A DNA stretch of 64,000 nucleotides from NCBI GenBank assembly GCA_041652815.1, contig JBAZGN010000002.1, positions 302,261 through 366,260 of the forward strand, read 5' to 3'. Shown piece after piece: positions 33,223-48,739 of this stretch. The first letter of the stretch is position 1. The number at the start of each line of letters is the position of its first letter. This DNA is from Candidatus Omnitrophota bacterium. Lineage in GTDB: Bacteria > Omnitrophota > Gorgyraeia > Duberdicusellales > 4484-171. The translations under genes were made by a program, and so were the position numbers. Below the pieces are notes generated by a model. That model had not been told where the DNA came from, ran no database searches, and saw only the letters and a program-made list of their open reading frames with translations.

Positions 33223-33337
33223 AAATGATGTATAACGCACGAATGAGCACGAAATGAGGGACGTTCCCCAAGGGGACACCCTGGTGTTGTATAGCATATT
33301 GGGATACGATGAGTAAGTATAGCATATATATAAAGAC

Positions 33338-33702
33338 GTTCGGCTGACCCTTGGTTCGTTTTATACAAGTCTCTCAAAAACATCCTTCCGTTGCTTTTGG
33401 TATGAAATATGCACCGCCCGCTTGGGCGGGCTTGGTGGTTGGCGCATTCACCGCTCGCCCCGCCTTGGGCGGGGACTTCGCTGCCTCGCTCGCTGGGCCG
33501 CTCGCTCTCTCAAGCAGTCTTGCCTCGCGCTCCCTGCGCCGCTAGGGCGGCTCCGGGGCTTGGCAAGCCTGCGGAACCACGTTTGTCCCGCGGTCGTAGC
33601 GTTTTGATACCCTTCCTCAGGCACCCGCTTTCGTCGGGCTTTCGCGCTTCGCGCAAATTTTTTCCTTTTCAATAAATCCTTTTCGGCTGGCGGCGGGGGA
33701 AA
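33338..33702 (+). repeat. GC-rich long repeat A, copy A1 (inverted copy at 50698..51053)
   Basis: ~360 bp with near-identity to the reverse complement of 50698..51053 apart from a divergent ~50-bp middle; contains hairpins gcccgcttgggcgggc and ccccgccttgggcgggg; starts at core cgttcggctg. Confidence 0.85.
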
Positions 33703-34180
33703 GGGGGGTAAAGCCCTCCTCAAGCAGGCGCCATCGTCGGGGTATTGTTTTGCCTTAGTAAAGGCAAAACACCCCGCCAAACCATCCCCCGACCACCCAG
33801 CTGTCGCAGCCGGGCGGCTTCAATCGCCTTTGGCGATTTTCGCTCCACCCTTTATGCGCCAGCTTTCCCCTCAGCGGAAAAAGAAACCTGTATATTTGGT
33901 TTTTTTCAAATCCCCACCCACCCAACAGTCACAGTCGGGCGGCTCCAATCTGTCGATTTCCGCATCGCCCTTTATGTGCCTGTTTTCCCCCTAAGAAATA
34001 ATACGCTATAACCTGGATTCTCCTTTCATTTCTTTTCATTCTACATCCCACCCAGCGCTTCGCGCTTCCTCATTTGTCAAGGATACTACGGCTTCCTTCC
34101 CCGAAGGGGCAGGACTTCCGTTCCTCCTTGACAAACGAGCCTCTCTGGATGTTTTAAATAAAAAAATGAAAGGAGGTGTT
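33703..34180 (+). repeat. GC-rich structured non-coding block with two tandem ~85-bp units (U1 33786..33878, U2 33911..33993) and long hairpin ttgtcaagga...tccttgacaa
   Basis: Units cccacccaRcaGtcRcagYcgggcggctYcaatc...ccctttatgYgcc; hairpin gttttgccttagtaaaggcaaaac; no credible ORF; GC far above window average. Confidence 0.7.
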
Positions 34181-34182
34181 CA

Positions 34183-34434
34183 ATGGAAAAGAAAATTTAT
34201 AAGTTAGAAAAGAGGCCTAGTAAATACAAAGTTCCTACTGCCCATTCCTCAAAGTCCTTATATGACCTTCAGATGTATCTCAATAAAAGCCGTGTGCGAA
34301 AGGGTTTGAATGCCCGCAAGAAACTGGTTAAAAAGTACAAAAGGCCAAATGGTTTTCTTCCAATGCTCAAATTGCTCGCCTTCTATTATGCCCTTGTCGG
34401 GCTAGTTATCCTATTGGCAAAACTAGGTATTTAG
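34183..34434 (+). CDS. small basic protein with C-terminal TM helix
   Basis: RBS aaaggagg; 83 aa; C-terminal LKLLAFYYALVGLVILLAKL. Confidence 0.45.
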   Translation: MEKKIYKLEKRPSKYKVPTAHSSKSLYDLQMYLNKSRVRKGLNARKKLVKKYKRPNGFLPMLKLLAFYYALVGLVILLAKLGI

Positions 34435-34472
34435 ATATTGCACCCTGTATTCAAAATGTGGTATAATACAAT

Positions 34473-35519
34473 ATGGCTGAGTTTGTTGTATCGGATAACT
34501 CCTATTCCAACCTGCTAAAGCAGATAAAACACGAAATAACCGACGGCCTAGTCCGCGCCCAAAAGGCTTATGAACGGGAAAAAGTTATTTCTTACTGGAA
34601 AATTGGTCAAGCCATAGATAAACACCTGTTGGAGAATAAGGACAGAGCCGATTACGGCAAGCAGTTGTATAGCCGGCTTTCGCGCGATTTAAATATCGGC
34701 GAACGCTTGCTTTACCAGATGTCGCAATTCTATTATGCCTACCCGGATTTAAAGCCTTCGCAAAACCTTAAATGGTCTCATTACCGGTTGCTGACTTCGG
34801 TTAAAGACGAAGAGCAGAGGGCTATACTCGAAACCAAAGCCGCCGACGACAACTGGTCGAAGCGCGCCTTGGAAACTTTCATTAAGGACGACAAGGAAAA
34901 AAGCGTTAAAGCCGCCAAGCCAAAATCTACAAAACTATCTTTTTTTAAGGGCCAGCTTTATACTTACGGTATATTTAAAGACGCTTGTGCTGAAAATGTT
35001 CTTATAGACTGCGGGTTTAATGTTTACTATGAATCAGATATGACAAAGTTCCCCGCTACCTCATTAAAGTCATCGGGCGGATCCGCCTTTGGCAGAAGCG
35101 GCAATCTGGTAGAAACTGTTAAAACCGGCGACACTTACAAGCTGGTCAAGTCCAACGCCACCCTTAAGCATTTATACACCTATAAAGCCTACGTTAAAAA
35201 AATCGTGGACGGCGATACCCTTTGGGTAACCATAGATTGCGGGTTTAAAATCTGGGTCAGTCAGAAGCTCCGCTTGCGCGGCATAGACACGCCTGGCATT
35301 ACAACCAAAGAGGGCATGAAATCTTACAAGTTCGTTTGCAATGAACTTAAAGGCTTACCGTTTGTTATAATAAAAAGCCACGGCCGGGATAAATACGACC
35401 GTTACCTTACGGATATATTCTACTTAAAGGACGGAAAAGACCCCCTAGCGGTCTTAGAGAAAGGTGAATTCTTAAACCAAAGGCTTTTAGACGCAAGCTT
35501 AGCAGATAGAGAGTTTTAG
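34473..35519 (+). CDS. DUF1016_N (YhcG-like N-terminal domain) fused to staphylococcal-nuclease-like (SNase/thermonuclease) domain
   Basis: N-terminal YWKIGQAI...RADYGKQLYSRLSRDL...WSHYRLL matches YhcG DUF1016_N; C-terminal IVDGDTLWV...LRLRGIDTPG...DKYDRYL matches SNase (DGDT, RLxGIDTPE, DKYGR) with the catalytic Glu position replaced by Gly. Confidence 0.65.
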   Translation: MAEFVVSDNSYSNLLKQIKHEITDGLVRAQKAYEREKVISYWKIGQAIDKHLLENKDRADYGKQLYSRLSRDLNIGERLLYQMSQFYYAYPDLKPSQNLKWSHYRLLTSVKDEEQRAILETKAADDNWSKRALETFIKDDKEKSVKAAKPKSTKLSFFKGQLYTYGIFKDACAENVLIDCGFNVYYESDMTKFPATSLKSSGGSAFGRSGNLVETVKTGDTYKLVKSNATLKHLYTYKAYVKKIVDGDTLWVTIDCGFKIWVSQKLRLRGIDTPGITTKEGMKSYKFVCNELKGLPFVIIKSHGRDKYDRYLTDIFYLKDGKDPLAVLEKGEFLNQRLLDASLADREF

Positions 35520-35585
35520 ATTATGTTAAGCTGGAATCCTTCGAAGCTTTAGAGCAGTAGGACGAAAGCCTTGCCGAGAGTTAAA

Positions 35586-35605
35586 CTACGTAGTATACTA
35601 CGTAG
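35586..35605. promoter_or_regulatory. perfect 20-bp palindrome CTACGTAGTATACTACGTAG (candidate operator overlapping -10-like TATACT)
   Basis: Exact self-complementary 20-mer 18 bp upstream of the AbrB-like small ORF. Confidence 0.6.
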
Positions 35606-35622
35606 TAATGGGGGTGTAGATA

Positions 35623-35799
35623 ATGGCACAACATAAGAAAAAAGGCGGCGTTACCCGAAAAATCACCAAGACTGGCGATTATACTTATTACGTAACCATT
35701 CCCGCGGAATATATCGAGGAGTTGGGCTGGCGCTGTAAACAAAAGGTATTGGTTAAACTTTTAGGGAAAAAAGTGGTTATTGAGGATTGGAGGGGATAG
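35623..35799 (+). CDS. small AbrB/MazE-like (swapped-hairpin) DNA-binding protein, 58 aa (below track threshold)
   Basis: MAQHKKKGGVTRKITKTGDYTYYVTIPAEYIEELGWRCKQKVLVKLLGKKVVIEDWRG; TIP..I..LG...G..V pattern of SpoVT/AbrB domain. Confidence 0.5.
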   Translation: MAQHKKKGGVTRKITKTGDYTYYVTIPAEYIEELGWRCKQKVLVKLLGKKVVIEDWRG

Positions 35800-35886
35800 A
35801 ATTGCCCTTCTCACTCAGGGTTGTTTGGATCATTTAAATGGTGTATAATCAACTAATATTTCCTAATTTTAAGGAGAAGATAGCTA

Positions 35887-37341
35887 ATGTTTGAGCAAAC
35901 CTTTAAGAATATTGACGATATCCTGCATAAAGATGCCGGGTGCAGTAGCGAGCTGGATTATGTGGAGCAGACCTCATGGATTCTCTTCTTGAAATATCTT
36001 GATGATCTCGAGAAAGATAAAAAAACAGCGGCAAAGCTATCAGGCAAGGCTCACGCGGGTATTATTAGCCCGGAATATCGCTGGGAAGTCTGGGCAGTCC
36101 CTAAAGATAATGACGGCAAGATTGATCATCACAAGGCGCTTACCGGAGATGATTTAAAAGATTTTGTCGACCACAAGTTATTTCCCTACCTAAAAAAGTT
36201 TAAAACCAATGCCGAGAGCGCCGATACTATCGAGTATAAAATTGGCGAGATTTTTAGCGAGCTTAAAAATAGAATCCAGAGTGGTTATAATCTGCGAGAG
36301 GTTATTAATTTAATAGATGAACTGCGTTTCCGTTCCCATGCCGAAAAACATGAGATGTCTCATCTATATGAGGACAAGATCAAGAATATGGGGAATGCGG
36401 GTAGAAACGGCGGGGAATATTACACGCCCCGTCCGCTTATCAAAACCATCGTGAAAGTTGTCGCTCCGGAAATCGGAAGCAAGATTTATGATGGCGCAGT
36501 AGGTTCGGCAGGGTTTTTGTGCGAAGCATTTGAATATCTTAAGACCAAAAAAAATCTAACCACAAAAGACGCCCAGACCCTACAGAAAAACACCTTTTAC
36601 GGCAAAGAAAAGAAATCGCTCGCCTACATCATCGGTACGATGAACATGATTTTGCATGGCATCGAGGCGCCGAATATCGTGCATACCAATACGCTTGCGG
36701 AAAACCTCGCCGATATTCAAGAAAAAGATCGTTATGATATTGTTCTCGCCAATCCGCCATTTGGTGGCAAGGAACGTGCCGAGGTGCAACAGAATTTCCC
36801 TATCAAGACCGGTGAAACGGCGTTTTTATTCTTACAGCATTTCATCAAGATTCTGAAAGCTGGCGGTCAGGCTGGCGTAGTGATTAAAAACACTTTCCTC
36901 TCCAACGCGGACAATGCTTCAGTCAGTCTTCGCAAACTTCTGCTGGAAAGCTGTAATCTGCATGCAGTCCTTGATCTGCCCGGCGGTACATTTACTGGCG
37001 CAGGTGTTAAGACTGTCGTACTTTTCTTTGAGAAAGGCGTTCCGACGCGTAAGGTTTGGTTTTATCAGCTAAATCTTGACCGCAACCTTGGCAAGACTAA
37101 CCCGCTGAATGAAAATGATCTCGCTGATTTCTTAATGCTTCAAAAGACCAAAGCGGACTCAGAGAATTCTTGGTCTGTTGATATTGTCGATGTAGATAAG
37201 GAAACAAGCGATCTATCGGTCAAGAATCCGCATAGAAGAAATGAAATAACTATTCGCGCCCCTCAAATAATTCTAGATGAAATGCAGACGCTGGACATGG
37301 AAAGCGCGAAGATATTGAAGGGCATAAAAGAGCTGTTATGA
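35887..37341 (+). CDS. hsdM: type I restriction-modification system methyltransferase subunit
   Basis: N6-adenine MTase motifs: NPPFG (ANPPFGGKERAEV), motif I GSAGFL; HsdM_N-like N-terminus. Confidence 0.85.
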   Translation: MFEQTFKNIDDILHKDAGCSSELDYVEQTSWILFLKYLDDLEKDKKTAAKLSGKAHAGIISPEYRWEVWAVPKDNDGKIDHHKALTGDDLKDFVDHKLFPYLKKFKTNAESADTIEYKIGEIFSELKNRIQSGYNLREVINLIDELRFRSHAEKHEMSHLYEDKIKNMGNAGRNGGEYYTPRPLIKTIVKVVAPEIGSKIYDGAVGSAGFLCEAFEYLKTKKNLTTKDAQTLQKNTFYGKEKKSLAYIIGTMNMILHGIEAPNIVHTNTLAENLADIQEKDRYDIVLANPPFGGKERAEVQQNFPIKTGETAFLFLQHFIKILKAGGQAGVVIKNTFLSNADNASVSLRKLLLESCNLHAVLDLPGGTFTGAGVKTVVLFFEKGVPTRKVWFYQLNLDRNLGKTNPLNENDLADFLMLQKTKADSENSWSVDIVDVDKETSDLSVKNPHRRNEITIRAPQIILDEMQTLDMESAKILKGIKELL

Positions 37342-38489
37342 GTAATCGATGGGAAAATAAAACTCTTGGCGAAGTCTGTGAGATTTTGGATAACAGACGC
37401 AAGCCAATCACAAAACGAGATCGGACTGCCGGTGAGTATCCTTACTACGGAGCTACTGGTATTTTGGATTATGTGCATGATTATATTTTTGATGAAAAGT
37501 TGATTTTGATTGGTGAGGATGGGGCAAAATGGGGAGCTGGTGAGAATACGGCATTTATTGCAGAAGGAAAATATTGGGTGAATAATCACGCCCATGTTAT
37601 CAGGCCTGATAGAAAAATTGTTTTAGATAATTGGTTAGTTTATTTCTTAAACTTTAGCGATTTATCCAAGTACGTTACAGGTTTAACAGTCCCCAAGCTC
37701 AATCAAGCGAAGATGCGAGAAATTTCACTGCCTCTTCCACCGATTTCCGAGCAAAAGAAAATGCTTCATGTAATTGATGAGATTTTCGAAAAGACAACTA
37801 AGGCAAAAGAAAACGCTGAAAAGAATCTGCAAAATGCTCGAGAGCTTTTTGAGTCGTACTTGCAAAGCATTTTTGCCAATCCGGGCGATGATTGGGAAGA
37901 AAAAAGTGTTGGTGAGATTGCTGATATTGAATATGGATTCACTGATAAAGCAAAATACGCGGGTGATTATCGATACATCAGGATCACGGATATTGATAAG
38001 AACGGAAATTTAGTAAAAGATGGCAAGGTTTTTGTTGATGCTTCCGAAGAGGCTAAAAAATATTTATTAAAGGATGGTGATCTGTTAATGGTAAGGACCG
38101 GCGCAACCTATGCGAAAGTATTGCTATACAAAGACATTGAAAAATCAATTTTTGCTTCTTATTTGATCCGGATCAAGTTTAGACAGGATATTGTAAACAA
38201 GCTTTACTGGTATTTCTCCAAATCCAGAATTTATTGGGAACAAGCAAACAAGCTTTCTTCTGGCTCTGCTCAGCCACAGTTTAACGGCGGAGTATTAAAA
38301 GAGCTTGTGTTTTATTTTCCGAGATCCTTTGAGAAACAAGGACAGATTGTCACCAAGCTTGATGCTCTTTCCACGGAGATTAAAAAACTCGAGATTGTAT
38401 ATCAGCAGAAGCTAATTGATCTTGAAGAACTTAAGAAACCGATATTACATAAGGCCTTTAACGGTGAACTCGCAGGAGTATGCTCATGA
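37338..38489 (+). CDS. hsdS: type I restriction-modification system specificity subunit
   Basis: Two target-recognition domains separated by conserved coiled-coil repeats; overlaps hsdM stop and hsdR start. Confidence 0.8.
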   Translation: MSNRWENKTLGEVCEILDNRRKPITKRDRTAGEYPYYGATGILDYVHDYIFDEKLILIGEDGAKWGAGENTAFIAEGKYWVNNHAHVIRPDRKIVLDNWLVYFLNFSDLSKYVTGLTVPKLNQAKMREISLPLPPISEQKKMLHVIDEIFEKTTKAKENAEKNLQNARELFESYLQSIFANPGDDWEEKSVGEIADIEYGFTDKAKYAGDYRYIRITDIDKNGNLVKDGKVFVDASEEAKKYLLKDGDLLMVRTGATYAKVLLYKDIEKSIFASYLIRIKFRQDIVNKLYWYFSKSRIYWEQANKLSSGSAQPQFNGGVLKELVFYFPRSFEKQGQIVTKLDALSTEIKKLEIVYQQKLIDLEELKKPILHKAFNGELAGVCS

Positions 38490-40792
38490 ATGAAGCCGAA
38501 ACCAGAGCAGAATATATTGATCCTAAGCTAAAAGCCAGCGGCTGGGGTATCGTGGAAGGCACCAAGGTTCTGCGTGAATACAAAATCACTGCCGGTAAAA
38601 TCCAGACTGGTGGAGGTCGCGCCAAGCCGTTGATTGCTGACTATGTTCTGGTGTATCGCGGTCGTAAGCTTGCCATCATTGAAGCCAAGAGTGATGAGCT
38701 TGAAGTTGGCGAAGGCGTTGCTCAAGCCAAGAACTATGCCGAAATGATGCATCTTGATACGACTTATGCCAGTAACGGCAAAGAGATTTACCAAATCTGT
38801 ATGAAAACCGGGAAGGAAGGCTTGGTTGCTTCTTTCCCGTCACCGGAAGAATTATGGAATAGAACTTTTGAGACGCAAAACCAATGGCGGGATAAGTTTA
38901 ATCAAGTCCCGTTTGAAGATGTCGGCGGTACAAAAGAAGTGCGCTATTATCAGGAAATCGCGGTTAATAACGCTATGGCCGCCATTGCCGAAGATAAACC
39001 GCGCATATTGCTTACCTTGGCCACAGGCACCGGTAAAACCTTCATCGCTTTTCAGATAGCGTGGAAACTTTATCATACCCGCTGGAACTTGAAGCGCGAT
39101 GGAAGCCGTAGACCTCGTATTTTATTTCTTGCCGATAGAAATATTCTTGCTGATCAGGCATTCAACGCCTTTTCAACATTCCCCGAGGACGCGCTCGTTC
39201 GAATTAACCCCAAAGAAATCAGCAAAAAAGGCAGTGTTCCGACTAACGGCAGTATTTTCTTTACCATCTTTCAGACCTTTATGAGCGGTAAGGATAAAGA
39301 CGGTAAGCCTGCTCCATACTTTGGCGAATATCCTGTAGATTATTTTGATTTTATCATTATTGATGAATGTCATCGCGGCGGGGCGAATGACGAAAGCAAT
39401 TGGCGAGGTATTCTGGAATATTTCTCTCCTGCTGTACAGCTCGGCCTTACCGCAACGCCTAAACGTAAAGATAACGTTGATACTTATCGCTATTTTGGTG
39501 ATCCGGTTTATGTATATTCGCTTAAAGAAGGTATCAACGATGGATTTTTAACACCGTTTAAAATTAAGCGAATCAAGACGACTATTGATGATTATGTTTA
39601 TACTTCGGACGATAAGATTATAGAAGGTGAAATTGAAGAGGGGAGAATATACACAGAGCCGGATTTCAATAGAATTATAGAGATTAAAGAGCGTGAATCT
39701 AAGCGAGCGCAGATATTCCTTTCTGAAATTAATCAAAAAGAGAAAACTATCGTTTTTTGTGCTACCCAAGATCATGCGCTCGCAGTACGCGATCTGGTTA
39801 ATCAATATAAAGATAGCAAGGAACCCAATTATTGTGTGCGCGTTACCGCTAACGATGGTTTTCTTGGTGAACAGTATTTGAGAGAATTTCAGGATAACGA
39901 GAAAACCATCCCAACGATACTAACTACCTCACAAAAATTATCTACGGGCGTAGATGCGCGTAATATTAGAAATATTATACTTATGCGGCCGATTAATTCT
40001 ATAATTGAGTTTAAACAAATTATTGGACGTGGGACACGGTTATTTGAAGGGAAAGATTATTTTACTATTTATGATTTCGTTGATGCGTATCACCATTTTT
40101 TAGATCCTACTTGGGATGGTGAACCAATAGACGAAACAAAGGAGAAGGAGCCAAAGAAGCCGAAAGAGCCACCTGTTCCTCCAGAACCACCTGAGCCGCC
40201 CAAGAAGAAGATTAAGATTAAGCTGCGCGATGGTAAGGAGAGAGAAATACAGCATATGATTGCGACAACTTTCTTAAGTGCTGATGGTAGGCCAATGTCT
40301 GCAGAAGAATTCTTAAAGAGCATCTTTGGGGCATTGCCTGAATTCTTCAAAAATGAAGACGAGTTGCGTAAAATTTGGTCTAACCCGATTACCCGGAGGG
40401 CGTTGCTTGAAAAACTATTTAATGCTGGCTACGGTAAAGATGAACTAGCTGCTTTGCAGAAATTAATTAATGCTGAGAAGAGCGATCTATTTGATGTCCT
40501 CGAATACATTTCTTTCGCTATAAAACCAATCACGCGAGAAGAACGTGTTGCACAGGCACAGACAAAGATTTTTCAAGGGTTGGATAATAAACAAAAGGAG
40601 TTTCTGGAGTTTGTGCTTTCTAAATATATTGAAACTGGTGTGGAGGAGCTTGATCAGGAAAAACTGCCAGACCTTCTGACTCTGAAATATCAGGCAATTC
40701 GTGACGCAGAGGAAATATTGGGCGGGGTTGATAGTATCCGTGCCACTTTTATTGATTTCCAGAAGTATTTGTATGAGAAAGTGGTAGTTTGA
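38486..40792 (+). CDS. hsdR: type I restriction endonuclease subunit R (short, ~769 aa)
   Basis: N-terminal MNEAETRAEYIDPKL nuclease domain, helicase motifs ATGTGKT and DECH (IIIDECHRG), SAT/QxxGR motifs; proline-rich insert EPPVPPEPPEPP. Confidence 0.8.
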   Translation: MNEAETRAEYIDPKLKASGWGIVEGTKVLREYKITAGKIQTGGGRAKPLIADYVLVYRGRKLAIIEAKSDELEVGEGVAQAKNYAEMMHLDTTYASNGKEIYQICMKTGKEGLVASFPSPEELWNRTFETQNQWRDKFNQVPFEDVGGTKEVRYYQEIAVNNAMAAIAEDKPRILLTLATGTGKTFIAFQIAWKLYHTRWNLKRDGSRRPRILFLADRNILADQAFNAFSTFPEDALVRINPKEISKKGSVPTNGSIFFTIFQTFMSGKDKDGKPAPYFGEYPVDYFDFIIIDECHRGGANDESNWRGILEYFSPAVQLGLTATPKRKDNVDTYRYFGDPVYVYSLKEGINDGFLTPFKIKRIKTTIDDYVYTSDDKIIEGEIEEGRIYTEPDFNRIIEIKERESKRAQIFLSEINQKEKTIVFCATQDHALAVRDLVNQYKDSKEPNYCVRVTANDGFLGEQYLREFQDNEKTIPTILTTSQKLSTGVDARNIRNIILMRPINSIIEFKQIIGRGTRLFEGKDYFTIYDFVDAYHHFLDPTWDGEPIDETKEKEPKKPKEPPVPPEPPEPPKKKIKIKLRDGKEREIQHMIATTFLSADGRPMSAEEFLKSIFGALPEFFKNEDELRKIWSNPITRRALLEKLFNAGYGKDELAALQKLINAEKSDLFDVLEYISFAIKPITREERVAQAQTKIFQGLDNKQKEFLEFVLSKYIETGVEELDQEKLPDLLTLKYQAIRDAEEILGGVDSIRATFIDFQKYLYEKVVV

Positions 40793-40953
40793 TAATTCTA
40801 ATTCGGTGGGCACGCACGTAATTATTTACAATTAGGTCTCCAGAATTTCAGAATTTTTCAGATGTTTTGGCGATAGAGATTATCGAAAACATCGAGGTTG
40901 GGTTGGAGAGCTTTAAGAGGATTATTGAGAAATTAAATAAGTAGGCACCTTAA

Positions 40954-42450
40954 ATGAATGTTTATTTTTCTGATATTTTTGATGTTAAACCAAAGACGAT
41001 AGAAAAATATGGTGCATTTAATGTTTCATTAATAAATGACCTGCCTTTGTTTATCGATCCCTTCCTATTGTTCAATAGCGACAAAAAAGAGTATCAAAAA
41101 TTACACGAAGATATTTTAAAATATGTAGCCTTTCTTCGTGACCGTTCTATTTCTATTGAGGTTAGCGATGGTTTATTGCGTAGTTGGTATTGTTTTCCCG
41201 AGGTTAAGCAAACATGGCTTGGTTATAGCGAGATTGGGAATGCGGGGCGAGGTCCTGGTATTGAGTTCGCAAAATCCCTGGACAATAATTTAAGTAATAT
41301 ATTCGCTGATTTTGATAAAAATAAGATATCCCGTAGCGCTCATCTTGAAAAATTATGTTTAATAAGGGAAAACACAGGGCGTGATAATATCAGCGATTTT
41401 GTGACTAATTTAATTAAGGGCTATCTTTTATCATATACCCAAGATTTCGCGCGAAAATATATTGATGTTTCCAGGTTGAAAGAGTTTAATGTGTCCCGGG
41501 TTGTTTTTAACTATAAAACATCGTCTTGGGTATCTTCTAAGCATATGTTGCCTTGCTTTGATAATGATTTTGTGTTGCTCACACCGCGCGATCTTCTAAC
41601 TAAAGACGATACTTGGATTAATAAGCCAGATTTAATCAATCAATTTGATAATATCGTTTTATCTGTATCGAATGACCAATTGCGTTCACAATTGAATTTT
41701 TATTTTTCACAGAATTTGCCTAAGCCAGAATACACAAAAAAAGGTAAAGAAAAAAAGCCAGCCAAGAAGGATATAGCCAAGGCGATTAATGCCGTTATGC
41801 AAAAATATCCTGTTTTGCTTGATTACTACATAAAATACAAAGAAGATCAAGGGGATAATGCAGTATCTATTAGCGCTGAACGAGTAGAAGAGGTTTATAG
41901 CCTTTTTGTTGAGAAATTATCATTATTTATTAGTTACTTATTTAGCAAAACTGATTTTTATAAAAGTTCTGGCAATACGTTACGAGAAAGTTATCAGAGG
42001 GTTATGTTCTTAAAACATGTCATAGAGGATCAGGATGGTTATAAAATATTTTACCCGACGCCTGACGGTAAGCCAATCAATCGTGAATCATACTTGCATA
42101 TTATGTTTAAGTTGACTTGGTGTGCAAGCGAGTCAGCTATTACACCGGAAACGAATGCCGGTCGGGGGCCGGTAGATTTCGCGATATCGAAAGGCGCGCG
42201 CGATAAGACATTGGTTGAATTTAAATTAGCTTCGAGTTCTAAGCTTCGGCAGAATCTTTTAAACCAAGTTGAAATTTATAAAAAGGCGCATGATACGAAT
42301 AAAGCGATAAAGGTTATTTTGTTTTTTTCCGCAGAAGAGGAATCACGGGCAAAAGGAATAATTGGTGATTTAGGTCTTTTAAATGAGAAGTATATTGTTC
42401 TTATTGATGCTAGGAGAGATAATAAGGTGTCAGCCTCAAAGGCTAAGTAA
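40954..42450 (+). CDS. hypothetical protein with duplicated NAGRGP motif and C-terminal PD-(D/E)xK-like signature
   Basis: SEIGNAGRGPGIEF and TPETNAGRGPVDFAISKGARDKTLVEFKLA; immediately downstream of hsdR. Confidence 0.4.
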   Translation: MNVYFSDIFDVKPKTIEKYGAFNVSLINDLPLFIDPFLLFNSDKKEYQKLHEDILKYVAFLRDRSISIEVSDGLLRSWYCFPEVKQTWLGYSEIGNAGRGPGIEFAKSLDNNLSNIFADFDKNKISRSAHLEKLCLIRENTGRDNISDFVTNLIKGYLLSYTQDFARKYIDVSRLKEFNVSRVVFNYKTSSWVSSKHMLPCFDNDFVLLTPRDLLTKDDTWINKPDLINQFDNIVLSVSNDQLRSQLNFYFSQNLPKPEYTKKGKEKKPAKKDIAKAINAVMQKYPVLLDYYIKYKEDQGDNAVSISAERVEEVYSLFVEKLSLFISYLFSKTDFYKSSGNTLRESYQRVMFLKHVIEDQDGYKIFYPTPDGKPINRESYLHIMFKLTWCASESAITPETNAGRGPVDFAISKGARDKTLVEFKLASSSKLRQNLLNQVEIYKKAHDTNKAIKVILFFSAEEESRAKGIIGDLGLLNEKYIVLIDARRDNKVSASKAK

Positions 42451-42656
42451 AGTGCCGTAAATTATGGAGGTTTTTATGCCCGACGGAGGATTTTTAGTTA
42501 AGTTTGACGGTAAAGAAGCGTTCAGGTGCTATGAGATAAGTTTTTCTTATGATTCGTTTACATACCGCATTAACAACGAAGAGCCTAAAGAATTTCCCAA
42601 GGAAGGTATTGGGAAAATAGAAATAATCCTCGAATAACCTGCAACAGTAAAAAAGC

Positions 42657-43577
42657 ATGCCAAAAAAGAAAATATGGTCAGGAGATTTTGAAGTAAAAAA
42701 TAATCTGCTTTATTACCTGCCTGCCGAAGACGATAAGCTTAACGTTGGTCATGCCTTAAAAGTAGTAGGCAAATGGGATATTACTAAAAATGGTCGCCTG
42801 CGATTTATTGTTGATAACTCGCAAAACCAGATTTTCGGTAAAACCATCTCTGTAGGCTCCGAACTTAGCCGCGTCAATACAGGAAGCTTAGAGTTTAGGG
42901 CGGCTCACCGCATAACCCCTACCGGTAAAAATGTAAAAACAATTGCGCTATCTGGTGAATTGACCGCGCTCGCCGGTAAAAAGCTTGCTTTTGAAATAGA
43001 GCGCGAAGGCGCGATTGATACTTTAAAATTAAACGGCACCTGGGATGTATTTGATGGCAACCAGATTGGATGTCTTATTAAGCGCACCTGCAGTGGCAAG
43101 CAAATAACCAATTCGGTTGCGTTAAAGGGTACTTGGGAAATTGCGGGTAATATCCTGTCGTATCAGGTGGAGAAATCCAACAAGCCGTTTTTGGCCCAGG
43201 AATTTGAAATCAAACGGGCAATCTACACCGACAAAGAAAGCGGCATTGATTTTACTTTAGGCGCGGACCTGCGGTGCGAAACCGCTCGCCGGGGCGCGAG
43301 CGATACAGTTTCTCTTAAGGGCACGTGGAAACAAGATGGGGCAAAAGCCGAATTTATTTTTACTTCCGCAAGGCGTCAGTCGTTTACCTTTATTTTAAGC
43401 CGTAAACTTTCCAACGATAAAGAGCTTGTTTTCGAACTAGATACAGGCGAGGATAGAAAACCTTCTTTTACATTGACTTTTGCCAAAAAGATTAAGGGTG
43501 ACAGCAGTTTCTTTATTCGTGGTAAGATTTCTGAAAAAGAAAAACGTGCCGAGGCAGGATTCTATTTCCCATTTTGA
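42657..43577 (+). CDS. hypothetical protein with repeated L(K/N)GTW beta-strand modules
   Basis: Repeats VVGKWDITKNG / LNGTWDVFDGN / LKGTWEIAGN / LKGTWKQDGA. Confidence 0.4.
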   Translation: MPKKKIWSGDFEVKNNLLYYLPAEDDKLNVGHALKVVGKWDITKNGRLRFIVDNSQNQIFGKTISVGSELSRVNTGSLEFRAAHRITPTGKNVKTIALSGELTALAGKKLAFEIEREGAIDTLKLNGTWDVFDGNQIGCLIKRTCSGKQITNSVALKGTWEIAGNILSYQVEKSNKPFLAQEFEIKRAIYTDKESGIDFTLGADLRCETARRGASDTVSLKGTWKQDGAKAEFIFTSARRQSFTFILSRKLSNDKELVFELDTGEDRKPSFTLTFAKKIKGDSSFFIRGKISEKEKRAEAGFYFPF

Positions 43578-43652
43578 TAAATTGTGAGTTTTCTTGCCAC
43601 CCTAAGCGTGAGAAGGTATAATAATACTGGTTGTAGGGGGGGGGTGAAATTT

Positions 43653-43910
43653 ATGAGTGACAATATCAATTTTGAAGAAATCAAAAAAGAAATCAGAAAA
43701 CTTATCTCTGAAATTGCTGAAATTCCAGAAGAAGAAATCAAAGATGATGCCAGATTTGCCGAAGACTTAGGTATTGACAGTATGATGGCCTTGGAAGTTG
43801 TTGCAGGTATTGAGAAAAAATACAAAGTAGTCATCCCTGAGGCAGAAATTCCCATCATAAGGTCGCTCCAAAACGTTTACGATTTACTAGGAAAACTGTT
43901 AAATAAATAA
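43653..43910 (+). CDS. acyl carrier protein
   Basis: DLGIDSMMALE phosphopantetheine-attachment motif; ATG 43653 (track ORF 43584 N-extended). Confidence 0.7.
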   Translation: MSDNINFEEIKKEIRKLISEIAEIPEEEIKDDARFAEDLGIDSMMALEVVAGIEKKYKVVIPEAEIPIIRSLQNVYDLLGKLLNK

Positions 43911-43911
43911 T

Positions 43912-45012
43912 ATGTCAGAGAAAAAAACCATATTTATCACTGGCACAACAGGTTTGCTCGGCTCTTATTTATTAAAAATCCTTCTGGAAAATGGACATAA
44001 AGTTTATGCGTTGGCGAGAAATAAGAATGAGAAAGCTGCTAAAGACAGAGTCAAAGAAGCTTTAAGCTTTTGGGATGATAAAGTCATTGCTAAATATTCA
44101 GATAATTTGATAGTCTTAGATGGTGACATAACTGAACAGAATTTAGGTTTAAAAAAAGAAAATATTGAATTGTTACGAAAAGAAATAGAAGAAATCTTCC
44201 ATTGTGCCGCGCTTACTAAATTAAATTCACCCCTGGAGAGCTCGCGAAAAGTGAATGTAGAAGGTACAAAAAATATTTTAGAATTATGCTGTGATTGGAA
44301 TAACCGCGGCAAATTAAAAAAAGTAAATCATATAAGCACTATTTTTATCTACGGAGATTATCAGAATATTTTTCAAGAAAATAACTTAGATGTAGGGCAG
44401 AAGTTTAATACTTTCTACGAGCAAACAAAATTTGAAGCAGAAAAGCTAATAGGGGAATATAGAAATAAAGGGTTATGGATAGATATTTTTCGCCCCTGCG
44501 CAATCATAGGAGAATCTTTTACTGGGAAAATCCCTTCCCTCAGCTACGCATTACATCAGTTAATTCATATTTGGAGCAAAGGCCTTTTGGATTATTTCCC
44601 TCAAGGTTATTTCCTCAAAGCTGTTTGTGTTGACGAGCTTTCTCGCAGTATTTTTTACATTTCTTCTAAAAGTTTGGAAAAGAATAAAACCTATCATCCT
44701 TTTGGTTATGATTCACTTTCACTTGTGGAGCTTTTGAATTTATCGGTAGAGCATTTTAAATTTAAGAAATTATATATTGTTAGTAAAGAAGAATTTGTAA
44801 GCAAATCCACGCCTTTGCAGGTTATGCTTTTAAAGCATAACATCTTTTTTATTAATACCAACGTTAAAGCTGCTTCCGAGGCCACTAATAAATTTTTAAA
44901 ATATTATAATTTTGAATTTTCGCAATTTACAAAACCTTTACTCTTTAATATTCTTGCTTATGCAATTAAGACAGGTTTTATTATGAAATCGAAAGAGCGT
45001 CATAAAGACTAA
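43912..45012 (+). CDS. thioester reductase / fatty acyl reductase-type SDR (NAD_binding_4 family)
   Basis: IFITGTTGLLGSYLLKILL Rossmann motif, YxxxK region (FYEQTK), length and pattern of terminal reductase domains; adjacent to ACP. Confidence 0.65.
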   Translation: MSEKKTIFITGTTGLLGSYLLKILLENGHKVYALARNKNEKAAKDRVKEALSFWDDKVIAKYSDNLIVLDGDITEQNLGLKKENIELLRKEIEEIFHCAALTKLNSPLESSRKVNVEGTKNILELCCDWNNRGKLKKVNHISTIFIYGDYQNIFQENNLDVGQKFNTFYEQTKFEAEKLIGEYRNKGLWIDIFRPCAIIGESFTGKIPSLSYALHQLIHIWSKGLLDYFPQGYFLKAVCVDELSRSIFYISSKSLEKNKTYHPFGYDSLSLVELLNLSVEHFKFKKLYIVSKEEFVSKSTPLQVMLLKHNIFFINTNVKAASEATNKFLKYYNFEFSQFTKPLLFNILAYAIKTGFIMKSKERHKD

Positions 45013-45024
45013 AGGAGGATATAA

Positions 45025-47157: not shown

Positions 47158-47644
47158 AATCCTAATTGTTGACGATGATTTAGAAGTATTAAATTCATTA
47201 GGCAAAATATTTACCACTTTAATGAAGGGGTATCTGGTGCTTAACGCAACTTCTGCTAACGCTGGTTTAAGTATGTTAAAAGAACAAAGGCCTGATATCG
47301 TGATTGTAGATGTCCGGCTTGGGCCTGCTTCAGGAATGGATTTGATTGCAGATTATTGCCAGTGGATAAGCAGCCAAGGGGGCTATAAGCCAATTTTTAT
47401 CGTGATTACTGCTTATGATGACGCAGTAGCAAAGAAAAGAGCCGAAGAATTTAAGGTTGACGCTTTTTTAATGAAACCATTTAGCAAGGAAACTATACTA
47501 CATGCAGTTATTGACGGGGTATGCAAGATTTTACATCGAGAGCTAAATATTCTTGATGAAATGCGCAATCACTATAAAATGATATTAGATAAGATTAGCA
47601 CATTGGATAAGAAATTAAATGGCGAAGAGGGTAACCATGAGTAA
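47147..47644 (+). CDS. single-domain response regulator receiver protein
   Basis: ILIVDDD, IVDVRL (phospho-Asp), conserved K region. Confidence 0.65.
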   Translation: MLVKILIVDDDLEVLNSLGKIFTTLMKGYLVLNATSANAGLSMLKEQRPDIVIVDVRLGPASGMDLIADYCQWISSQGGYKPIFIVITAYDDAVAKKRAEEFKVDAFLMKPFSKETILHAVIDGVCKILHRELNILDEMRNHYKMILDKISTLDKKLNGEEGNHE

Positions 47645-48014
47645 AATATTGATAGCAGACGATGAAAAAGAAATTTCTGAAATGATTGGAACGTCACTGC
47701 GCCGCTCGGGATATGAAGTTTTTTCTGCTTTAGATGGGAAAACAGCGATAGAAACTGCGAAATGCGAAAACCCCGACGTAATTTTACTTGATCTGCGTTT
47801 TCCTAAACCCGGCCTGGATGGTATAGAAATATTAACAGCAATCAGGGAATTTAATAAAGAGGTAAAAGTTATTCTTACTTCTGGATTAGGCGCCGAGGCT
47901 AAAGAAATAGAGCAGGCGCAAGGATTAGGTATCAGTAAATTTCTGCCTAAGCCGTTAGATATCGCACAATTAAAAGAAACCCTCAGGGAAATGGTCGGTA
48001 ATAACACAGCTTAA
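47619..48014 (+). CDS. single-domain CheY-like response regulator receiver protein
   Basis: ILIADDE, ILLDLRFP, LTSGLG, K in FLPKP. Confidence 0.7.
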   Translation: MAKRVTMSKILIADDEKEISEMIGTSLRRSGYEVFSALDGKTAIETAKCENPDVILLDLRFPKPGLDGIEILTAIREFNKEVKVILTSGLGAEAKEIEQAQGLGISKFLPKPLDIAQLKETLREMVGNNTA

Positions 48015-48027
48015 TAGCGGTTTTAAA

Positions 48028-48312
48028 ATGTTATTTTTCCGCAAGAAAAAAGATGAAAAGTTAGAACAAGTAAAGCAAGAAATTTTCTCAAAAATTAAGC
48101 CCATATTATCTAAGATGCTTGAGGTAGATGAGGAAAAAATTACCCCAAAAGCCAGAATAGCCGAAGATTTAGGTGCAGACTCATTAGATTCAGTAGATAT
48201 TACAATAAAATTAGAAGAAGTATTTAATATTGAAATACTTGATGAAGACGTAGAAAAAATGAAAACCGTTGACGATATTCTTACTTATTTAGCACACAAT
48301 AAAGAAGGTTAA
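48028..48312 (+). CDS. acyl carrier protein-like (second copy)
   Basis: EDLGADSLDSVDI motif. Confidence 0.6.
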   Translation: MLFFRKKKDEKLEQVKQEIFSKIKPILSKMLEVDEEKITPKARIAEDLGADSLDSVDITIKLEEVFNIEILDEDVEKMKTVDDILTYLAHNKEG

Positions 48313-48314
48313 CT

Positions 48315-48739
48315 ATGTCCACCTGGCGAGATTTATTCCACACTTTAGCAAATAAGCAGAATTTGATAAGTATAGGCACAAAGGCAACCAAAGAAGCCCT
48401 TGAGGATTGCTTAAAAAAAGATGTGTCAAAAGAATTAAAAGAGAAAATACTTGATAATGCTGCAAATGGAAAATATTTTAGCCTATCTTTATCAGCGCAA
48501 TATTTCCGAAAACGAAAAACGTGCTTCTGTGGTTTTCAAGCAATTCGCCTCAAACAAGGGATAACTTTAACAAGAGCTGGCAATTTCTAATTCCTTCAGT
48601 TATGGAAAGAGGCGTGATCCTGGGCGTTTTATTGCAATACGGCATGATCGAAAGTGATGATATAAATTTAAAAATAACGGCGCAGGGGTATAACTTCTTG
48701 CAATACATAGGGTTAATTCCTTACCCTTCCCAGGTATAG
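48315..48739 (+). pseudogene. possible frameshifted gene (two overlapping ORFs 48315..48590 and 48521..48739)
   Basis: Consecutive same-strand ORFs overlapping by 70 nt in different frames; could be an authentic frameshift, a programmed shift or an assembly error. Confidence 0.3.

What the first reader, a model, noticed from the sequence alone, without database searches (positions are those of the whole stretch)
33338..34180. ~850-bp GC-rich, hairpin-dense non-coding block in an AT-rich genome: candidate large structured RNA or recombination-site array
The region has no credible ORF, and its GC content is far above the window background. It contains repeat A, which has paired hairpins gcccgcTTGGgcgggc and ccccgccTTGggcgggg. 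It contains a 10-bp perfect hairpin gttttgcctt-agta-aaggcaaaac. It contains two tandem ~85-bp units, U1 and U2, each with an internal hairpin (aatcgcc...ggcgatt). It ends with a long hairpin ttgtcaagga...tccttgacaa. A third, diverged U copy lies at 51300–51385 in the same orientation, next to the other A copy. The two A copies differ in a ~50-bp central segment and are near-identical elsewhere.
Basis: seen in the sequence. Interest (0 to 1): 0.75.

Follow-up and report, generated by a model that had tools for sequence, protein, structure and literature searches.

The report
Non-coding end of a miaB-inserted island
The GC-rich block is the non-coding left end of a ~22-kb mobile defence island that a large serine recombinase inserted into the start of the tRNA-modification gene miaB, and it carries a previously undescribed ~90-base hairpin element whose function is still unknown.

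Summary
The block is real. Its GC is 0.549 against 0.388 for the window, it has no credible ORF, and it is hairpin-dense. It is not one large structured RNA.

Immediately to its left lies a truncated native miaB start (MSKYSIYIKTFG, cut inside the FGC|QMN motif). About 22 kb downstream, a large serine recombinase (LSR) gene reads into a replacement miaB start fused to an intact miaB. So 33347–55764 is an integrated island and the block begins at attL.

- **Repeat A (33347–33702)** is the island-side arm next to the crossover. Its second copy is inverted, not direct, and is joined to a perfect 177-nt inverted copy of the replacement miaB start. That joint is an attP-like site inside the island.
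- **T has strong covariation** and about 70 further copies in related metagenomic islands. It has no Rfam match.
- **T is polar.** Its C-rich strand follows gene ends and precedes strong promoters.

More than 120 homologous junctions show this is a large island family in Omnitrophota. My best guess for the hairpins is transcriptional insulation. That is inferred, not shown.

The parts
33309..33346 (+). Displaced native 5' end of miaB (ATG 33309; MSKYSIYIKTFG). It is cut after the TG of the Cys codon in the FGC|QMN motif. The junction creates an in-frame TGA at 33345–33347. This is the host-side arm of attL.
   Evidence: Read directly from the sequence. The same cut point, ACNTTCGGNTG|, is seen in the intact miaB at 55754–55764 and in 123 homologous junctions. 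Host synteny (methyltransferase gene, then the miaB start) recurs in L089 and L177.
33347..33702 (+). Repeat A. It is the island-side arm next to the crossover: a conserved stretch of about 45 nt (ACCCTTGGTT.GTTCTCTACAA...), then a GC-rich (0.60) mosaic of short hairpins (GCCCGC-TKGG-GCGGGC type) and CGCT-rich sequence, and a weak hairpin followed by a T-run near its 3' end.
   Evidence: Inverted copy at 50699–51053. Homologous A sequences lie next to the junction in many loci. GC content. The terminator-like hairpin plus T-run was scored in the A' copy.
33736..33793 (+). Strong stand-alone hairpin (GTCGGGGTATTGTTTTGCCTT-AGTA-AAGGCAAAACACCCCG...) between A and the first T copy.
   Evidence: z −5.0. 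A shortened version sits at the same place in L024.
33787..33878 (-). The model orientation is on the − strand, so the C-rich strand is on the + (gene-sense) strand.
   Evidence: Covariance-model match: 77.5 bits, E 6e-22. It folds to the consensus structure on both strands.
33912..33998 (-).
   Evidence: Covariance-model match: 79.2 bits, E 2e-22. Fold.
34069..34139 (+). 71-nt imperfect palindrome just upstream of the first cargo gene. Its 3' arm contains a TTGACA hexamer (34128–34133). No canonical −10 lies at 16–18 nt, so a promoter is not established.
   Evidence: z −5.1. The promoter scan found nothing here.
34183..50559 (+). Cargo arc 1 of the island. It holds an 83-aa protein, DUF1016 (PADLOC PDC-S02), type I restriction-modification hsdM/S/R, a PDC-M36A-like protein, carrier-protein and reductase genes, a histidine kinase with response regulators, and DUF2971 (PDC-S31).
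   Evidence: Pfam and PADLOC scans. Apart from a DUF1016-gene match in L127, this cargo has no nucleotide-level (blastn) match in the related loci.
50588..50675 (-). T element copy 3 (subtype T-a). It starts 29 nt after the stop codon of the last cargo gene and lies between that gene and A'.
   Evidence: Covariance-model match: 94.1 bits, E 4e-27. Position relative to the ORF end.
50699..51053 (-). Repeat A', the inverted second copy of A. It is 92–93% identical to A, with a variable patch of about 45 nt.
51054..51230 (-). Inverted, 100% identical copy of B (the last 61 codons of the recombinase gene plus the replacement miaB upstream region and first 16 codons). Joined to A', it forms an attP-like B|A junction inside the island.
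   Evidence: The same inverted B|A junction upstream of the HTH gene occurs in L012–L019, L081, L132, L136 and L170.
51312..51401 (-). Its C-rich strand ends 7 nt before the TTGACA of the HTH-gene promoter.
   Evidence: Covariance-model match: 56.3 bits, E 2e-15. Promoter TTGACA-17-TAAAGT at 51409–51437.
51445..55772 (+). Recombinase arc. It holds a 60-aa MerR/excisionase-like HTH protein (candidate directionality factor), orphan proteins of 609 and 171 aa, and a 549-aa large serine recombinase.
   Evidence: Pfam Resolvase + Recombinase + Zn_ribbon_recom. NCBIfam results. More than 1000 homologues found. HTH–(cargo)–LSR–miaB synteny in dozens of MAGs.
55588..55764 (+). B. This is island DNA that encodes the recombinase C-terminus and supplies a replacement miaB start (MQNSNSGKKVCIRTFGC). 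It is fused at 55764/55765 to the rest of miaB, forming attR.
   Evidence: The recombinase C-terminus encoded here is conserved across the family.
55715..56896 (+). Intact miaB (island-supplied first 16 codons plus the native remainder).
   Evidence: Pfam UPF0004 + Radical_SAM. NCBIfam MiaB equivalog TIGR01574 scores 360.5 bits, above the cut-off of 355.3.

Best explanation
**What it is (high confidence).** The block is the non-coding left-end backbone of a ~22.4-kb genomic island (33347–55764). A large serine recombinase (LSR) integrated the island into the 5' end of miaB, at the DNA that encodes the conserved FGC|QMN motif.
- The island carries its own miaB upstream region and first 16 codons (B), so miaB stays intact after insertion.
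- The native miaB start is left stranded at 33309–33346 and now points into the block.
- From left to right the block contains the attL crossover (TG at 33345–33346), the island-side arm A, one strong hairpin, two copies of the ~90-nt T hairpin element, and a palindrome in front of the first cargo gene.
- A second, inverted copy of B+A sits inside the island. The excised circle would therefore carry two inverted repeats of about 535 bp, each holding a recombinase site. These would split the circle into a cargo arc and a recombinase arc.

**How it works (inferred, moderate to low confidence).**
- The first ~45 nt of A are the recombinase's binding arm.
- The rest of A plus the T elements act as a transcriptional buffer. 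Each B|A or native-start|A junction has a miaB promoter firing across it. The short leader ORF stops at the TGA that the junction creates.
- The hairpin-rich RNA that follows is untranslated, and in this window the 33768–34128 stretch is C-rich and G-poor. Together with the T hairpins it would stop or insulate that read-through before it reaches cargo promoters or collides with convergent cargo transcription.
- T elements are modular 'bookends'. Their C-rich strand lies just after the last gene of a unit and just before the next promoter.
For: **Island identity**
- The truncated miaB start abuts A. The identical cut point occurs in the intact miaB and in the inverted B|A copy.
- LSR domains are present, and miaB passes its equivalog cut-off.
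- HTH–LSR–miaB synteny holds across Omnitrophota, Elusimicrobia, Margulisiibacteriota and Saganbacteria MAGs.
- There are 123 junctions of two classes. One class has a conserved island-encoded leader (MSKESKGYKNMPKKIYIRTFG). The other has diverse native MiaB N-termini.
- The simple form, native-start|A–T–T–HTH–cargo–LSR–B|miaB, is seen in L138.
- Independent assemblies reproduce both junctions of this locus at 99.99% identity.
- Cargo differs between islands while A, T, B, HTH and LSR are shared.

**T element**
- The window has 4 copies and none elsewhere in its 64 kb. Related islands have 67 more. All 11 hits in the 852-kb LSR-locus set lie in nine loci close to a recombinase gene, and the distant LSR loci have none.
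- 14 of 19 predicted pairs show compensatory changes.
- 88% of cells are paired against 65% in shuffles; 206 double-change cells against 71; slid controls give 23–46%.

**Insulator reading**
- Polarity control: the C-rich strand is followed within 40 nt by TTGACA-N16-18-TAnnnT in 16 of 63 copies, against 0 of 63 for the other orientation. It is preceded within 35 nt by the end of a long ORF in 15 of 63, against 3 of 63.
- T-a lies between convergent units, the last cargo gene and the promoter in B.
- G·T and A·C mismatches are equally rare in helices 1, 3 and 4 (14 against 13), as expected if the hairpin must form on both strands.
- A hairpin plus T-run lies near the 3' end of A'.
- C exceeds G over 33768–34128 on the sense strand.
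Against: - No transcription data exist for this organism, so termination or insulation is untested.
- T lacks the long U-tract of a canonical intrinsic terminator, and the terminator scan did not call it. Terminator-like sites are not enriched in this window at all: 17 found against 17 expected.
- The unpaired internal loops of T (GGAA…TGAAGC, CAAAG) are more conserved than its stems. That suggests recognition by a specific factor rather than a generic stop signal.
- A single hairpin would be enough for termination. That leaves 350–450 nt of conserved GC-rich A unexplained.
- Across the family, A shows no consistent C-over-G bias; mean GC skew is −0.01.
- How the inverted B|A copy arose is not explained.
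Confidence: 0.6

Rival explanations
1. T elements (and perhaps the A hairpins) act at the DNA level. They could be sites for cargo exchange or capture, either for homologous recombination or for an unknown recombinase, analogous to integron attC sites. Alternatively they could be binding sites for the island's HTH protein or recombinase.
For: - Copies within a locus are almost always co-oriented and sit at the borders between conserved backbone and variable cargo.
- Homology between the two A copies of one population stops abruptly at a fixed point, after which different T/cargo arrangements follow.
- Mismatch types show no strand bias, which fits a DNA palindrome.
- Internal loops are conserved, as expected for a protein-binding site.
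Against: - No tyrosine or HUH-type enzyme that acts on folded single strands is conserved in the islands. Only the LSR and the HTH protein are shared.
- LSRs act on short duplex sites and are not known to need hairpins (established knowledge of phiC31/Bxb1-type integrases).
- There is one T per operon border, not one per gene. The 17-kb cargo arc has none inside it.
- No case was found of the same cargo bounded by T in two different contexts.
Confidence: 0.15
2. T is a functional RNA motif. It could be a cis-acting 3'-end or 5'-leader element, such as a stability, processing or protein-binding signal on the C-rich sense transcript, or a small RNA made from the G-rich strand.
For: - Covariation is strong and stems and loops vary in length, as in many RNA motifs.
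- Orientation relative to genes is fixed.
- The T-a copies lie in the 3' untranslated tail of the last cargo gene.
- Unpaired nucleotides are conserved.
Against: - G·U pairs are very rare, about 2% of cells, and no commoner than A·C. That is unusual for a strand-specific RNA.
- T-b copies lie upstream of their neighbouring promoter, so only read-through would transcribe them.
- There is no Rfam family for it.
- No promoter was identified for a G-rich-strand RNA (my reading of the sequences).
Confidence: 0.15
3. The whole 850-nt block is one large structured non-coding RNA.
For: - It is GC-rich in an AT-rich genome.
- The stranded miaB promoter would transcribe it (inference).
- It is conserved in other species.
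Against: - There is no Rfam match.
- A's sense-strand fold has z 0.18.
- A is mosaic, ranging from 180 to 750 nt between species, with whole hairpin modules present or absent.
- The modules after A differ between the two copies in the same genome.
- T occurs in both orientations relative to A.
Confidence: 0.05
4. The repeats are an assembly artefact, meaning a chimeric or fold-back contig, or a fragment of a known gene.
For: - The 177-nt perfect inverted repeat is longer than the assembler's k-mer, so short-read graphs cannot fix the orientation of 51231–55587.
Against: - An independent MEGAHIT contig spans 32815–51194 at 99.99% identity, crossing both A copies and the A'|B junction.
- The same architecture recurs in many species at 65–85% identity.
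- There are no Pfam or BLAST hits to any gene.
Confidence: 0.03

Closest known systems
Large-serine-recombinase integrative elements (phiC31/Bxb1-type prophages; SCC elements with Ccr recombinases; Bacillus skin/SpoIVCA and Anabaena fdxN/XisF elements)
   Same: - The recombinase has the Resolvase + Recombinase + zinc-ribbon architecture, and its best NCBIfam matches are CcrB, CcrC and XisF.
- The recombinase gene lies next to one att site.
- The crossover is short, with no long direct repeats.
- A small HTH gene is present as a candidate directionality factor.
- The cargo is made of defence genes, as in SCC-type tandem islands (PMC11470126).
   Different: - The target is the 5' coding end of miaB, not rlmH, sigK, fdxN or an intergenic site.
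- The recombinase scores far below the Ccr and XisF equivalog cut-offs.
- The island carries an internal inverted attP-like copy and a GC-rich arm of more than 350 nt with T hairpins. I am not aware of these features in those systems (own knowledge).
dusA-specific genomic islands (Farrugia et al. 2015, PMC4482086)
   Same: - Both insert into the 5' end of a tRNA-modification gene.
- In both, the island replaces the displaced 5' end with its own sequence, and a remnant native 5' end is left at the far border (here).
   Different: - The dusA islands use a tyrosine integrase family. This island uses a serine recombinase.
- No GC-rich hairpin backbone is described for them in the passages I read.
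Yeast 2-micron plasmid and other flip-flop inverted-repeat replicons; Gin/Hin-type invertible segments
   Same: - Two long inverted repeats, each holding a recombinase target, would divide the excised circle into two unique arcs, one of which encodes the recombinase.
- Both orientations of the recombinase arc relative to A are seen among related contigs.
   Different: - This is an analogy of layout only.
- The enzyme is an LSR, not FLP (a tyrosine recombinase) or a small serine invertase.
- Inversion has not been shown.
- No replication function is known.
Integron attC arrays / REP-BIME palindromic repeats / intrinsic terminators
   Same: - T is a co-oriented, imperfect palindrome at gene-unit borders, and its structure is conserved by compensatory change.
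- It lies in 3' tails and in front of promoters.
   Different: - There is no integron integrase and no one-site-per-cassette pattern.
- T is not dispersed through the genome; it occurs only inside these islands.
- It has no canonical U-tract.
- Its loop sequences are conserved, unlike generic terminators.

Membership tests
Large serine recombinase integrative element | Recombinase with an N-terminal resolvase catalytic domain, a recombinase domain and a zinc-ribbon domain | tested here: met
   Pfam PF00239, PF07508 and PF13408 on 54123–55772.
Large serine recombinase integrative element | Hybrid attL and attR junctions that share only a very short crossover with the target, with the recombinase gene next to one junction | tested here: met
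   - Native-start|A lies at 33346/33347 and B|miaB at 55764/55765.
- The cut point is the same in 123 junctions.
- Sequence differences between the native and island arms place the crossover at the TG.
Large serine recombinase integrative element | Demonstrated excision or integration (a circular attP form and an empty attB site) | tested here: inconclusive
   - Contigs with a full-length LSR followed by B|A exist (L101, L147, L159).
- They could be circles, tandem copies or a flipped recombinase arc.
- No empty site was recovered.
5'-end-replacing gene-targeting islands (dusA type) | The island supplies a new in-frame 5' end, and the remnant native 5' end stays at the other border | tested here: met
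   - miaB is intact and passes the equivalog cut-off with island-encoded codons 1–16.
- The remnant MSKYSIYIKTFG lies at 33309–33346.
5'-end-replacing gene-targeting islands (dusA type) | dusA-associated tyrosine integrase | tested here: not met
   The only recombinase is a serine recombinase, and the target is miaB.
SCC elements (Ccr recombinases) | CcrA, CcrB or CcrC equivalog, and insertion at the 3' end of rlmH | tested here: not met
   The best match is CcrB at 223.8 bits against a cut-off of 900. The target is the 5' end of miaB.
Any described RNA family (Rfam 15) | Covariance-model match at or near the gathering score | tested here: not met
   - Whole window at gathering threshold: only a cobalamin riboswitch elsewhere.
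- Permissive scans of 33100–34300 and 50540–51450: nothing credible.
Integron cassette array (attC) | An IntI tyrosine integrase and one attC per cassette | tested here: not met
   - No Phage_integrase-type hit appeared among the scanned genes of 29.5–57 kb.
- There is no T copy inside the 17-kb cargo arc.
Intrinsic (Rho-independent) terminator | A GC-rich hairpin followed directly by a U-tract | tested here: inconclusive
   - T copies are not called by the scan.
- T-b copies have only 3–6 T after the stem.
- A short hairpin plus T-run near the 3' end of A' is called.
REP/BIME-type dispersed palindromes | Many copies dispersed through intergenic regions of the genome | tested here: not met
   - The window has no T copy outside the island.
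- In the 852 kb of LSR-fetched loci, all 11 hits lie in nine loci close to a recombinase gene; the distant LSR loci have none.
Flip-flop inverted-repeat replicon (2-micron-like) | Recombinase-driven inversion between sites inside two long inverted repeats | not testable with these tools
   - The layout fits.
- Both orientations occur among related contigs.
- Short-read assemblies cannot resolve orientation across a 177-nt perfect repeat.

The most novel reading that the evidence does not exclude
The island family may be a serine-recombinase 'flip-flop' platform. The internal inverted B|A site is attP-like, and the B|miaB site is attB-like because B mimics the native miaB arm. The two share identical left arms, so recombination between them would invert the recombinase arc and regenerate the same two sites. 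That would turn a normally one-way integrase into a reversible switch. In the same reading, the T hairpins are a new class of structured nucleic-acid signal that a conserved factor recognises and that marks exchangeable cargo units.
Probability: 0.12. Interest if true: 0.8.

Novelty: new variant of a known kind. Interest (0 to 1): 0.55.

Why it matters
- **It explains the anomaly.** A striking GC-rich non-coding block in an uncultured phylum (Omnitrophota) turns out to be the backbone of a mobile element.
- **It defines a large island family.** I found no description of it in the literature searches I ran. The islands are defence-gene carriers that insert at one conserved codon position of miaB and repair the gene they interrupt.
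- **It gives usable predictions.** The att sites are predicted to the nucleotide for more than 100 natural variants of one serine recombinase lineage. This is the kind of data used to mine integrases for genome engineering.
- **It adds a new structured element.** T has better covariation support than many accepted motifs (about 70 copies, 17 of 19 pairs with compensatory changes) and a fixed polarity relative to genes. It is a concrete target for Term-seq or binding studies.
- **It raises a testable possibility.** The long inverted repeats around the recombinase site may allow a reversible inversion built from an integrase.

Tried and rejected
- **Rfam** at gathering threshold and at permissive thresholds on both repeat regions: nothing.
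- **Coding potential:** Pfam on six ORFs (five in the block, one across A') gave nothing. The frame is not conserved between A and A', which differ by indels of 2 and 1 nt. An apparent 27–30-codon ORF across T-a ('GKRTK..EIRRIETGRLRLPRK') was rejected because its stems change completely between species while pairing is kept.
- **BLASTN of the block** against plasmid and phage collections: no match. IMG/VR has no junction match. It has two matches to the T core: one is a chance hit in GC-rich coding DNA, and the other lies next to a distant LSR. The islands are therefore not typical phages.
- **Global RNA structure for A:** rejected on z-scores and on the mosaic alignment.
- **Rho-loading (C over G) bias as a general property of A:** not supported across the family. 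It holds only for the T-containing part of this window.
- **Strand assignment for T from wobble pairs:** uninformative, because G·T equals A·C.
- **A divergent promoter that could drive a G-rich-strand T RNA:** I could not find one by eye in the sequences.
- **Canonical promoter for the 83-aa gene:** not found.
- **Shared cargo bounded by T in different islands:** none seen apart from a DUF1016 gene in L127.
- **Literature searches** for miaB-targeting serine-recombinase islands or Omnitrophota recombinase elements: no description of this system.
- **Origin of the inverted B|A copy:** I tried to derive it from tandem integration or a single inversion and found no simple path.
Full report
**1. 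The observation**

The block 33338–34180 has a GC content of 0.549. The window mean is 0.388 and the sd of 843-nt windows is 0.039. This is the GC maximum of the window, and the second-highest region is the locus of the other A copy.

No frame is credibly coding. Stop-free stretches reach at most 128 codons of low-complexity sequence. Six ORFs were tested against Pfam, five inside the block and one across the A' copy, and none matched.

The named hairpins and the U1/U2 repeat are present. The hairpins at 33730–33795 and 34060–34145 fold about five sd better than shuffles.

Four points needed correction:
- The second A copy (50699–51053) is inverted.
- U1 and U2 are ~90-nt units with a 120–125-nt period, not head-to-tail 85-mers.
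- A fourth U-type copy lies at 50588–50675.
- A as a whole folds no better than dinucleotide shuffles on the + strand (z 0.18; −2.4 on the other strand).

**2. What flanks the block**

Immediately to the left, 33309–33346 reads ATG AGT AAG TAT AGC ATA TAT ATA AAG ACG TTC GGC TG. This encodes MSKYSIYIKTFGC, a typical MiaB N-terminus cut inside the conserved FGC|QMN motif. The first base of A completes an in-frame TGA.

At 55715 an intact miaB begins (Pfam UPF0004 + Radical_SAM). It scores 360.5 bits on the NCBIfam MiaB equivalog, above the cut-off of 355.3.

The first 50 nt of miaB and the 127 nt upstream of it form a 177-nt segment, B (55588–55764). B has a perfect inverted copy at 51054–51230. 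On the minus strand that copy is joined to A' at exactly the same nucleotide...ACATTCGGTTG|ACCCTTGG....

The gene that reads into B is a 549-aa large serine recombinase (LSR) with Resolvase, Recombinase and zinc-ribbon domains. Its last 61 codons lie in B and are conserved across its family. B is therefore island DNA, not host DNA.

Putting this together:
- The island is 33347–55764.
- attL is native-start|A at 33346/33347.
- attR is B|miaB at 55764/55765.
- Base differences between the native arm (ACGTTCGGCTG) and the island arm (ACATTCGGTTG) place the crossover at the terminal TG.
- The island repairs the gene it interrupts. This is the logic described for dusA-specific islands (PMC4482086), but here the enzyme is a serine recombinase.

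The cargo includes a type I restriction-modification system and several PADLOC candidate defence families: PDC-S02/DUF1016, PDC-M36A and PDC-S31/DUF2971.

**3. It is real and widespread**

- Independent assemblies from other samples reproduce the locus at 99.96–99.99% identity. One contig spans 32815–51194, crossing both A copies and the A'|B junction. Other contigs break exactly k−1 bases into the repeats.
- The source organism is a Candidatus Omnitrophota MAG.
- The recombinase has more than 1000 homologues.
- In a scan of species-representative genomes, HTH–(variable cargo)–LSR–miaB synteny recurs in Omnitrophota, Elusimicrobia, Margulisiibacteriota, Saganbacteria and WOR-1 MAGs.
- In the closer relatives, the same inverted B copy joined to an A-like sequence lies upstream of the HTH gene.
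- A metagenome scan with the junction pattern returned 100 loci. Together with the earlier loci this gives 123 junctions of two classes:
  - B|A, with a conserved island-encoded leader such as MSKESKGYKNMPKKIYIRTFG.
  - native-start|A, with diverse host MiaB N-termini such as MKIYIKTFG and MINKKIYIRTFG.
- L138 shows the simple element: native-start|A–T–T–HTH–cargo–LSR–B|miaB.
- L078 shows the same composite layout as the window.
- Apart from a DUF1016-gene match in L127, the window's cargo has no nucleotide-level match in the other loci, while A, T, B, HTH and LSR are shared.

**4. Anatomy of A**

A GC peak 100–300 nt past the junction is present in nearly all homologues, in genomes of 0.34–0.39 GC. 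Alignments show these parts in order:
- A conserved stretch of about 45 nt next to the crossover (ACCCTTGGTTTGTTCTCTACAAGTTGGCTAAACCGTTC...). I take this to be the recombinase-binding arm.
- A run of short GC hairpins of one style (GCCCGC-TKGG-GCGGGC; CCCCGCC-TTG-GGCGGGG; GCCCGCC-TGGGCC-GGCGGGC), linked by CGCT-rich sequence.
- Hairpin modules that are present or absent between species, so that A ranges from 180 to 750 nt.
- A conserved AT-flanked end (TTGGCGGCGGCGAAAAATTTATAAAAGGTG).

The first hairpin keeps its stem while its loop accepts insertions of 20–50 nt, or while the stem is replaced by a different complementary pair. So there is local selection for pairing, but no support for a single global fold.

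Within a genome the two A copies are 75–100% identical. Their homology ends abruptly at a fixed point, after which different modules follow.

B+A therefore forms inverted repeats of about 535 bp. In the excised circle these would flank both arcs, a layout reminiscent of the 2-micron plasmid. This is my inference.

**5. The T element**

The tail of A' and the reverse complements of U1, U2 and U3 align as one family.
- RNAalifold predicts a long irregular hairpin of 19 pairs. Fourteen pairs have at least one sequence with a compensatory double change.
- A covariance model finds exactly four copies in the window (E from 1e-15 to 1e-27) and nothing else in 64 kb with filters off.
- It finds 56 + 11 copies in related loci. 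All 11 hits in the 852 kb of LSR-fetched loci lie in nine loci close to a recombinase gene, and the distant LSR loci have none.
- On the 50 distinct new sequences, 88% of cells pair against 65% in shuffles. There are 206 double-change cells against 71, and slid-register controls give 23–46%.
- Helix 2 is not kept in one subtype.
- G·T (14) and A·C (13) mismatches are equally rare in helices 1, 3 and 4. Pairing is thus selected on both strands, or at the DNA level.
- Unpaired segments (GGAA…TGAAGC, CAAAG) are more conserved than the stems.
- There are two subtypes:
  - T-a lies 0–30 nt after the stop of the last cargo gene, next to A'.
  - T-b has a C-rich strand that ends 2–30 nt before a strong TTGACA-17-TAnnnT promoter of the HTH gene or of another first gene.
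- An orientation control confirms the polarity. A promoter lies within 40 nt downstream in 16 of 63 copies for the C-rich strand, against 0 of 63 for the other strand. A long ORF ends within 35 nt upstream in 15 of 63, against 3 of 63.
- Copies within a locus are nearly always co-oriented.
- Relative to A, T occurs in either orientation.
- There is no Rfam match.

**6. Mechanism**

*Shown:* the block starts at a serine-recombinase junction, A is the island-side arm and one half of a long inverted repeat, and U1/U2 are copies of a conserved, covarying, gene-polar hairpin module.

*Inferred:* every junction has a miaB promoter firing across it. At attL this is the stranded native promoter. At the internal copy and in attP it is the promoter presumed to lie in B. 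The leader ORF ends at the TGA that the junction creates. What follows is untranslated, hairpin-rich RNA. In this window it is C-rich and G-poor from 33768 to 34128, and a hairpin plus T-run lies near the end of A'.

T-a lies exactly between convergent units, and T-b lies directly upstream of promoters. I therefore favour a transcriptional buffer or insulator role, acting in both directions. This would protect cargo and regulatory promoters from read-through.

Four things weigh against it:
- T lacks a canonical U-tract.
- Canonical terminators are not enriched in this window at all.
- The conserved loops hint at a specific binding partner.
- The length of A is more than termination needs.

The rival readings remain open: a DNA-level cargo-exchange or protein-binding site, a cis-acting RNA, or a single large RNA. 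They are scored in the rival-explanations section.

**7. The inverted repeat around the recombinase arc**

The internal B|A' and B|miaB sites share identical left arms. A crossover at the TG would therefore invert 51231–55587 and regenerate the same two sites. Contigs from other islands show both arrangements: LSR→B|miaB in most, and LSR→B|A in L101, L147 and L159. However, assemblers with k=141 cannot orient a segment between 177-nt perfect inverted repeats. Inversion is therefore neither shown nor excluded. This is the most novel reading left open.

**8. Comparison and novelty**

The system works like LSR integrative islands. Its nearest protein matches are CcrB, CcrC and XisF, all far below their equivalog cut-offs. 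It also works like the 5'-end-replacing dusA islands (PMC4482086). It is not a member of the SCC, dusA-integrase or integron families, because defining features were tested and not met.

I found no paper describing miaB-targeting serine-recombinase islands or this hairpin element. The library is incomplete, so this is absence of evidence only.

I rate it a new variant of a known kind. It is an ordinary class of element (a site-specific integrative defence island) with an unusual long-inverted-repeat layout and a new conserved structured module.

**9. Verdict**

The finding is genuine, and it is largely explained. It is the backbone of a mobile element rather than a free-standing large RNA. The residual interest lies in the T element and the possible flip-flop architecture. 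Interest 0.55.

Noticed in passing
window 51054–51230 and 55588–55764: A perfect 177-nt inverted repeat brackets the 4.36-kb recombinase arc (HTH gene, 609-aa and 171-aa orphan proteins, LSR). Independent contigs end exactly 141 nt into each arm, so short-read assemblies cannot decide the arc's orientation. The arc may be invertible.
   Followed up: partly
window 8746–8938 (+): Cobalamin riboswitch (RF00174; 92.5 bits, E 1e-21) upstream of the genes starting at 9053. It is unrelated to the finding.
   Followed up: no
window 30997–31138 and 32297–32438: A 142-nt direct repeat (79% identity, 1300 nt apart) lies in the intergenic regions upstream of the ORFs at 31158 and 32461. It has no Rfam hit at gathering threshold.
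   Followed up: no
window 8540–8581 and 11672–11721: A-rich 'CGCAAAA'-type 42-nt repeats (90% identical, about 3.1 kb apart), flanking the cobalamin-riboswitch-regulated gene cluster.
   Followed up: no
window 15951–15990 and 16059–16098: A 40-nt inverted repeat (88% complementary, 68 nt apart) just upstream of the ORF at 16202.
   Followed up: no
window 34020–34048 and 34147–34175: A pyrimidine-rich stretch (CTCCTTTCATT...) is 76% complementary over 29 nt to the region that holds the ribosome-binding site and start of the 83-aa gene (…ATGAAAGGAG). It could sequester the RBS in read-through transcripts.
   Followed up: no
window 51627–53456 and 53611–54126: The two proteins between the HTH gene and the recombinase (609 and 171 aa) have no Pfam, NCBIfam or PADLOC match and no tblastn match in the LSR-fetched loci L012–L079. 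This slot holds different genes in different islands.
   Followed up: partly
window 55715–56896: The miaB product is only 393 aa and matches positions 2–370 of the 437-position MiaB profile, so the C-terminal TRAM region appears to be missing. Homologues in related loci align over the same extent.
   Followed up: no
window 55765–55772 versus 51053–50995 (−): The recombinase ORF has two possible C-termini. It stops 8 nt after the crossover when joined to miaB, but would run about 17–28 codons further into A in the B|A (attP-like) configuration.
   Followed up: no
L181 (IMGVR_UViG_3300031358_000112) 4400–4598: A contig classed as viral carries a much more distant serine recombinase (21% identity). 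Next to it are an A-like GC-rich stretch and the start of a T-like element. The hairpin backbone may therefore extend beyond this recombinase clade.
   Followed up: partly
L128, L147, L167, L173 downstream of T-b: Several islands have a perfect palindrome (CTGTAAATATTTACAG) between the −35 and −10 of the promoter that follows T. It sits in front of a gene whose product begins MK..ILT.RQQQ. It looks like an operator for that gene's own product.
   Followed up: no
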